A stretch of DNA of 64,000 nucleotides, taken from contig OX597836.1 of the NCBI GenBank assembly GCA_951406725.2, positions 5,952,001 through 6,016,000 of the forward strand. The letters run 5' to 3'. Origin of the DNA: Octopus vulgaris (Eukaryota). A program made the translations under genes and the position numbers. Position 1 is the stretch's first letter. Each line of letters begins with the position of its first letter. The notes beneath the pieces were generated by a model that was not told the DNA's origin, searched no databases, and saw nothing but the letters and a program-made list of their open reading frames with translations. Positions 48,959 to 49,085 of this stretch are shown here, piece after piece.

Positions 48959-49085
48959 GGGAGATTTACGAAAAATACAAAAGACGAAGACAGGTGGTGT
49001 ACAAAACAAACAGATGTATTAGTATAACGCTCAGGAATAGAAAAGGTCTTTTACGTTTCGAGCCTACGCTCTTCTACAGAAAGAC
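48959..49085 (-). mobile_element. HHR-bearing family D element, beginning at the ribozyme motif
   Basis: Homologous to 1978-2107; lies between (TA)n and (CA)n. Confidence 0.75.
49046..49085 (-). ncRNA. Minimal type-I hammerhead-like motif (A6U core)
   Basis: gtcttt-CTGTAGA-A-GAGC-gtag-GCTC-GAAA-C-GTA-aaagac; 6-bp stem I, 4-bp stem II. Confidence 0.65.

What the first reader, a model, noticed from the sequence alone, without database searches (positions are those of the whole stretch)
49046..49085. Family D hammerhead motif with a fixed A6U core variant; copies vary mainly at tolerant positions
Seen: copies at 1978(+), 30108(-) and 49046(-) read cttt-CTGT(G/T/A)GA-A-GAG(C/T)-gtag-GCTC-GAAA-C-GT(T/A)-aaag, except that the 1978 copy also has A9 changed to T. 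Variation falls at N7, at H17 (A or U, never G) and in a G-U wobble, which are the positions a hammerhead tolerates. All three have U in place of the normally invariant A6. Established: A6 substitutions usually impair cleavage. Inference: this is either a functional non-canonical core, or a ribozyme fold kept as an RT-recognition or priming structure after catalysis was lost. Three copies is a small sample.
Basis: partly seen in the sequence, partly recalled or inferred. Interest (0 to 1): 0.7.

Follow-up and report, generated by a model that had tools for sequence, protein, structure and literature searches.

The report
Penelope retroelement hammerhead with fixed A6U
The motif is the small hammerhead RNA at the tail of a very abundant Penelope-like jumping gene whose whole lineage, including its intact young copies, has U where hammerheads normally have A while the rest of the core stays unchanged, which likely makes it a slowed, conditional self-cutter; cutting is untested.

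Summary
The three copies are 5'-truncated 3' ends of a Neptune-type Penelope-like retrotransposon (RT plus GIY-YIG; at least 22,631 copies). The motif is the known minimal type I hammerhead of such elements. A6U is fixed: exact U6 versus A6 counts are 4,454:50 and 6,243:50, and the A6 copies are scattered point mutants. All 29 hammerheads of 17 young stretches with long ORFs carry U6. Across eight subfamily consensuses whose flanks differ by up to 37%, only N7 and H17 change; 34 other positions never do. A sister family (69% protein identity) keeps A6 but amplified U4C and G17 forms. Copies do not start at the cut site. Best reading: an attenuated, conditional ribozyme whose cleavage is not needed for insertion (0.55). 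Main rival: a catalytically dead fold kept for another reason (0.3). No cleavage data exist. The scan noted A6U Penelope hammerheads before in other genomes (unchecked). Lünse 2017, which may list the variant, was not readable. New variant of a known kind.

The parts
48959..49086 (-). 5'-truncated 3' end (pLTR) of the Penelope-like element, subfamily S4; 3' end abuts (TA)n, 93 nt downstream of H17; 5' edge blurred in (TG)n
49048..49083 (-). Minimal type I hammerhead: stem I 5' 49083-49080; C3-A9 49079-49073 (U6 = 49076, N7 = 49075); extra A 49072; stem II 49071-49068 / 49063-49060 with 4-nt loop; G12-A15.1 49059-49056; C15.2, G16.2, U16.1 49055-49053; H17 49052; stem I 3' 49051-49048
1918..2107 (+). 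Second copy, subfamily S5 (G7, U17); hammerhead 1978-2013 with a private A9>T change
30020..30214 (-). Third copy, old subfamily S8 (U7, A17); hammerhead 30108-30143 with C10.4>T at a CpG
20424..20458 (+). Hammerhead of the sister Penelope family (A6 kept, U4C, 3-nt loop II); used as comparison

Best explanation
The motif is the minimal hammerhead in the terminal repeat of a Neptune-type Penelope-like retrotransposon whose source lineage carries U at position 6 throughout, and it likely works as a slowed, conditional self-cutter whose cut is likely not needed when a copy is inserted. Shown: the element (pLTR, 1,071-aa RT plus GIY-YIG ORF, pLTR; unit about 4.5 kb), its (TA)n-flanked 5'-truncated copies, the fixed U6, and invariance of the remaining core and stems through eight subfamilies. 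Inferred: copies are made by target-primed reverse transcription that starts about 95-110 nt downstream of an uncut hammerhead, so fast cutting of the 3' hammerhead would destroy the template and a slow ribozyme is tolerated or favoured. Predicted: U6 lowers the chemical rate, as natural A6C does, and also pairs with A15.1 so that U4-G5-U6 traps the stem III strand in an inactive rod. Cleavage would then need a partner hammerhead in a tandem transcript (pairing through the ACGU palindrome) or the element's protein. Selection keeps C3, G5, G8, A9, G12-A15.1 and U16.1, probably because a residual, delayed cut still processes tandem read-through transcripts.
For: Element identity: (RVT_1 E 1.8e-7, above cut-off; GIY-YIG E 0.006, below cut-off); the EN region resembles the Neptune rows of PMC8557442 Fig. 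S2. U6 in 29 of 29 ORF-linked hammerheads in 17 young stretches (stretches picked for long ORFs). U6:A6 = 4,454:50 and 6,243:50; A6 copies are interleaved with U6 copies in all but the youngest subfamily. Subfamily ladder: 0 of 34 hammerhead columns vary outside N7 and H17, versus 49 of 108 flank columns (Fisher p 5e-8); with copies found by a flank pattern only, 3 of 36 versus 48 of 91 (p 2e-6). Contigs from four organism labels differ only at N7 and H17 inside the motif at the 5% threshold. Outer stem I pair is C-G here (101 of 124) and G-C in the sister family (16 of 32 U4C copies). Rod pairing P(G5-C15.2) is 0.73 in 124 U6 copies versus 0.13 in 39 natural A6 copies. Literature: natural A6C cleaves slowly (PMC3088659; PMC7151607); pairing to the CUGA box delays cleavage (PMC1636495); a Poseidon hammerhead cleaves only with protein and its mutants insert normally (PMC11167929); metazoan min-HHRs are weak and need dimers (PMC4209133).
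Against: No cleavage was measured and no RNA end data were obtained. 5' ends do not pile up at the cut: 1 of 93 copies within 2 nt, about 4 of 39 loci counted by eye, 0 of 16 long copies. Loop II is also invariant in 7 or 8 of 8 consensuses, which catalysis alone does not require. The sister family amplified a G17 subfamily (17 of 30 loci), and G17 is regarded as non-cleavable (recalled NUH rule). The rod effect depends on context: with 2-nt flanks it is 2.6 kcal/mol for U7 but only 0.4 for A7, and the motif folds no better than shuffles (z -1.24). The double-hammerhead dimer is 7-15 kcal/mol worse than the best predicted dimer in every group. The T-rich flanks mutate about twice as fast as the motif in copies (0.038 versus 0.017), so the p values overstate the contrast; halving the expected 23 changes still leaves 0 observed.
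Confidence: 0.55

Rival explanations
1. The hammerhead is catalytically dead and the fold and sequence are kept as a protein-binding or RNA-packaging element of the retrotransposon RNA.
For: Three different cleavage-impairing changes sit in amplified source lineages of two related families: A6U, U4C (77 of the first 100 of 11,113 matches, counted by eye) and G17 (41 of the first 100 of 292, by eye; 17 of 30 loci share one flank type). Loop II is invariant. No 5' ends at the cut. Catalytic mutants insert normally in vitro (PMC11167929).
Against: The relaxed core positions (4 and 6) are those with known active natural variants (PMC3088659), while G8 and G12, the general acid and base (PMC6155905), never change in any consensus of either family. 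In Poseidon a template lacking the CUGA box still inserts, so the fold is not the RT-binding site there. H17 switched three times in this family, only between A and U (too few to be significant).
Confidence: 0.3
2. U6 is fully compensated in this architecture (extra A after A9, GUAG loop contact, dimer or protein), so the ribozyme is as active as its A6 relatives.
For: Strict conservation of everything else, including loop II, for the whole ladder. A6C can recover with Mn2+ (PMC7151607).
Against: A6C costs orders of magnitude in Mg2+. U6 adds a competing pairing. Even canonical-core PLE hammerheads are weak.
Confidence: 0.1
3. The conservation is not about an RNA fold: the 36 nt overlap a DNA-level or splicing signal of the pLTR (promoter element or 3' splice site after the pyrimidine tract), or simply hitch-hike in a few source elements.
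For: A long pyrimidine tract precedes the motif and the A7 subfamily reads YAG at positions 6-8. In D. virilis the intron ends at helix I (PMC4209133).
Against: The free positions are exactly N7 and H17, and N7 changes remove that YAG in seven of eight consensuses. Stem I covaries between families. Contigs showed no credible joint over the 251 nt laid (weak, contigs only).
Confidence: 0.05

Closest known systems
Minimal type I hammerheads (min-HHR) in pLTRs of metazoan Penelope-like elements (Cervera and De la Peña 2014, PMC4209133; read parts 1-2 of 4 and supplement file 2 part 2 of 3)
   Same: Short stem I, extra nucleotide between 9 and 10.1, G10.1-C11.1, palindromic C15.2-G16.2 with no loop III, U-rich 5' flank, position in the pLTR, mostly solo truncated copies.
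   Different: U at position 6. All 44 alignment rows seen in Fig. S3 have A6 (consensus CUGANGAH), though their descriptor required it. The only core variant named in the text read is U3-A8.
Neptune clade of endonuclease-positive Penelope-like elements (Craig et al. 2021, PMC8557442; passages and supplement part 54 of 59)
   Same: Single ORF with RT then C-terminal GIY-YIG, CX2-5CxxC motif upstream of it, tandem pLTR layout, (TA)n targets, hammerhead near the 3' end.
   Different: No tree against reference PLE proteins was built, so Neptune versus Nematis rests on motif likeness by eye.
Natural A6C hammerhead of phage Bcep176 and viroid U4C (Perreault 2011, PMC3088659, section 8 and passages; Naghdi 2020, PMC7151607, parts 1-2 of 4)
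   Same: Natural substitution at position 6 (or 4) of an otherwise intact core; low but real activity reported.
   Different: Those are single isolates with C6; here U6 is fixed in a retroelement lineage of more than 22,000 copies and can pair with A15.1.
Poseidon PAc hammerhead of Anolis (Frangieh 2024, PMC11167929, parts 1-2 of 4)
   Same: Hammerhead about 90 nt upstream of the reverse-transcription start; inserted copies contain the uncut motif.
   Different: PAc keeps an active, protein-assisted core overlapping the start codon; here the ATG lies about 750 nt downstream.
Small hammerhead variants of Penelope-like elements that cleave as dimers (Lünse, Weinberg, Breaker 2017, PMC5785218; not held, title only from reference lists)
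   Same: By title, same element class and dimer architecture.
   Different: Unknown. This paper may already list an A6U variant; it could not be checked.

Membership tests
Endonuclease-positive Penelope-like element | One ORF with RT and C-terminal GIY-YIG endonuclease | tested here: met
   1,071-aa ORF; RVT_1 454-643 above cut-off, GIY-YIG 874-907 at E 0.006 below cut-off; 11 of 16 ATG starts in 15 further long-ORF loci read through both domains
Endonuclease-positive Penelope-like element | pLTR-ORF-pLTR tandem layout with the hammerhead in the pLTR | tested here: met
   865-nt direct repeat at 97% in L179, hammerheads 4.5 kb apart, tandem array on C6
Endonuclease-positive Penelope-like element | Fixed 3' end, variable 5' truncation, microsatellite targets | tested here: met
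Neptune clade | CX2-5CxxC motif between RT and GIY-YIG | tested here: met
   CSRPRCRTC upstream of the LYIGQTG motif, compared by eye
Neptune clade | Placement in an RT phylogeny | not tested
   No reference PLE proteins were available as tool sequences
Minimal type I hammerhead of PLEs | Stems I and II, extra base after A9, G10.1-C11.1, palindromic 15.2-16.2 | tested here: met
   P(stem II) 0.96-1.0 and P(stem I) 0.78-1.0 in U6 copies; stem I covariation with the sister family
Canonical hammerhead core | A at position 6 (CUGANGA) | tested here: not met
   U6 in all eight subfamily consensuses; A6 about 1% of exact matches
Canonical hammerhead core | C3, U4, G5, G8, A9, G12, A13, A14, A15.1-U16.1 and H17 not G | tested here: met
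   Invariant in all consensuses; H17 is A or U
Hammerhead ribozyme (functional class) | Self-cleavage 3' of H17 | not testable with these tools
   No raw RNA reads were offered; genomic 5' ends show no peak at the cut
Non-LTR retrozyme | Short non-coding tandem repeats, one hammerhead per unit | tested here: not met
   Copies are solo truncated ends of a coding element; the tandem unit is 4.5 kb with an ORF

The most novel reading that the evidence does not exclude
Penelope-like elements repeatedly evolve a brake in their hammerhead. Two sister families in this genome independently fixed A6U and U4C in the uridine turn while keeping every catalytic base, and A6U also zips the CUGA box onto the stem III palindrome. 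The ribozyme would thus be off as a monomer, protecting the reverse-transcription template, and on only in a tandem transcript or with the element's own protein: a natural U6 hammerhead acting as a copy-number or RNP-gated switch.
Probability: 0.3. Interest if true: 0.72.

Novelty: new variant of a known kind. Interest (0 to 1): 0.47.

Why it matters
What hammerheads do in Penelope-like elements is stated to be unclear (PMC8557442), and the one in vitro system shows cutting is not needed for insertion (PMC11167929). Here an intact, recently amplifying family has carried a 'forbidden' core base through eight subfamilies while holding every other core base. The genome supplies natural matched controls: A6 revertant copies and sister U4, C4 and G17 forms. 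That makes the question 'slow catalysis or fold only' directly testable. It also shows that descriptors requiring CUGANGA miss tens of thousands of such motifs per genome. The element class and motif architecture are known, and this copy is an inert fragment.

Tried and rejected
Rfam scans: no hammerhead hit (150 of 467 rows seen). Repeat finder on the whole window was swamped by microsatellites. No PLE ORF in the window. Pfam gave nothing on a degraded 393-aa fragment; PDB sequence search gave 0 hits. Expression: no RNA holder listed and no raw reads; laid contigs cannot show ends; a second, longer laying meant to look for an intron gave no result, so splicing near the motif stays open. Idea that an A6 source subfamily exists inside the family: rejected, A6 copies are scattered; the two oldest groups hold more of them (2 of 14 unselected S8 copies), which age can explain but a minor old A6 source is not excluded. 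Idea that U4C strengthens the same rod pairing as A6U: rejected, P(G5-C15.2) 0.00 in both sister groups; the sister has a different rod register regardless of position 4. Idea that cleavage sets the 5' end of copies, as in R2: not supported; no matching control was run on an A6 family, so this says little about U6 activity. Papers not held: Lünse 2017 and a PMC id recalled for a review of core mutants. Literature searches for a described A6U natural core (supplement searches) found none, but supplement file 1 of PMC4209133 was not searchable and bioRxiv supplements are closed.

Full report
1. Observation. The three motifs are present at 1982-2013(+), 30108-30139(-) and 49048-49079(-), with none expected by chance. 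They lie in 130-190-nt homologous segments, 78-84% identical, that end at one 3' position next to (TA)n.

2. What the repeat is. The window lies in a 2.8-Gb animal assembly (probably an octopus, by inference and by the wording of earlier scan notes). A 19-nt flank pattern outside the hammerhead has 22,631 exact matches, control 0. Copies share the 3' end and are cut short at the 5' side. Longer copies run upstream through a pyrimidine- and CA-rich 3' UTR into a GIY-YIG endonuclease and an RT with YIDD. A protein search returned 150 scored hits, over 100 of them at one identical score, which marks a very young subfamily. I fetched 20 stretches, chosen mostly for long open frames. They show pLTR-ORF-pLTR units of about 4.5 kb and a tandem array. 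The ORF of L179 is 1,071 aa with RVT_1 and a weak GIY-YIG hit; 11 of 16 ATG starts in 15 other loci read through both domains. A CX4CxxC motif before the endonuclease resembles Neptune elements (by eye; no tree). Family D is therefore the pLTR end of an endonuclease-positive Penelope-like element, and the motif has the layout of the min-HHRs of Cervera and De la Peña.

3. Is A6U fixed? Exact counts are 4,454 U6 against 50 A6 for the A7 form and 6,243 against 50 for the U7 form. A pattern with positions 5-9 free gives 30,452 matches; about 74 of the first 100 have U6, with all four bases common at N7 (by eye). All 29 ORF-linked hammerheads in the 17 young stretches have U6; of the other three stretches one has U6/A7 and two gave no motif in that script. 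In a tree built without the hammerhead columns, A6 copies are interleaved with U6 copies. One A6 copy sits in an inverted pair whose partner has U6 and the same private changes (L032). A6 is thus recurrent point mutation, and U6 is the state of the source elements.

4. Selection. From 427 profile hits, 348 were unique, 259 spanned the motif, 246 remained after removing duplicates, and 7 sister copies were removed, leaving 239. Clustering on flank columns gave eight subfamilies in a ladder, 2% to 12% from their own consensus and up to 37% apart. Along the ladder the flanks change 73 times in 108 columns (49 variable). The 36 hammerhead columns change 8 times: 5 at N7 and 3 at H17 (Fisher p 5e-8 for 0 of 34). 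Many copies were fetched by hammerhead patterns, so I repeated this on copies found by the flank pattern alone (96 of the first 100 listed were recovered, 74 spanned the motif): 3 of 36 columns vary, the third being a loop base in a four-copy group, against 48 of 91 (p 2e-6). The flanks are T-rich and about twice as mutable in copies, so the contrast is overstated but remains. Contigs from four runs under four organism labels differ inside the motif only at N7 and H17 at the 5% threshold. Changes within individual copies are mostly CpG decay and do hit G12, C15.2 and G16.2.

5. The sister family. A related family with a 3-nt loop II has 11,113 exact matches and a copy in this window at 20428. 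One long copy links it, through a 2.9-kb CA-rich 3' UTR, to an open RT plus GIY-YIG frame 69% identical to that of family D. It keeps A6, which with the published consensus makes A6 ancestral (inference). The outer stem I pair is C-G in family D and G-C or G-U in the sister. About 77 of the first 100 sister matches have U4C (by eye), and a smaller subfamily has G17 (17 of 30 loci, shared flanks). C3, G5, G8, A9, the extra A, stem II, G12-A15.1 and the CG-U of stem III are constant in all consensuses of both families.

6. Mechanism. Inserted copies keep the whole hammerhead and about 95-110 nt beyond H17, so their template was uncut at that site (sequence). 5' ends do not gather at the cut: 1 of 93, about 4 of 39, 0 of 16 long copies. 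This fits Frangieh 2024, where uncut RNA is the insertion substrate, catalytic mutants insert normally, cutting needs the protein, and a template starting past the CUGA box still works. Folding predicts that U6 pairs with A15.1 and extends stem I through the core: P(G5-C15.2) 0.73 in 124 U6 copies versus 0.13 in 39 natural A6 copies. The effect is strong for U7 forms and small for A7 with short flanks. Such pairing is known to delay cleavage in viroid hammerheads. Natural A6C cleaves slowly, and U4C supports viroid infectivity. I therefore favour an attenuated, conditional ribozyme (0.55): the bases given up are those with active natural variants, and the catalytic G8 and G12 are never lost. 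The dead-fold rival (0.3) is supported by the G17 subfamily, the invariant loop II and the lack of cut-site ends. Full compensation (0.1) and a non-RNA constraint (0.05) are less likely. None of this shows cleavage.

7. Novelty. The element class and the motif layout are known. I found no A6U natural core in the searches listed under Tried and rejected, but Lünse 2017 was not held and one supplement file could not be searched. Earlier scan notes report A6U Penelope hammerheads in other genomes, including sharks (unchecked AI notes, not evidence). If they hold, the variant recurs and is not peculiar to this genome. Verdict: new variant of a known kind, interest 0.47.

Noticed in passing
window 20424-20458 (+), element about 20358-20560: Sister Penelope family hammerhead with U4C core; U4C is the majority form (about 77 of first 100 of 11,113 matches) and is linked to an open RT plus GIY-YIG frame in L425.
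   Followed up: partly
L393-L422 (G000, several contigs): Sister subfamily with G at position 17 (17 of 30 loci, shared flanks; about 41 of first 100 of 292 matches), a triplet regarded as non-cleavable (recalled).
   Followed up: partly
window 17757 (+) and 17520 (-): Inverted pair of a third hammerhead family with canonical CUGAUGA core, extra A and a longer stem II; further copies in L108 and L427.
   Followed up: no
L137 and L285: Two old family D copies share an altered stem II and a UUCG-type loop while keeping U6; possibly a small ninth subfamily.
   Followed up: no
L144:2100-3850 and L381:4150-4950: A more distant Penelope-like family (25-30% protein identity, CxxxxCxxC plus GIY-YIG-like end) whose 3' end showed no hammerhead match with my patterns.
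   Followed up: no
L117, L131, L135, L141, L426: Other hammerhead-like motifs with CUGAAGA or UUGAAAA cores and long stem II but no adjacent stem III palindrome.
   Followed up: no
L177-L178 (G000:C6:117.39-117.41 Mb): Head-to-tail array of at least three 4.5-kb units of the youngest subfamily, a natural source of two-hammerhead transcripts.
   Followed up: partly
window 5641-5870 / 11856-12085 and 17978-18226 / 33358-33606: Other dispersed repeats of 230-250 nt (86-93% alike), SINE-like by appearance.
   Followed up: no
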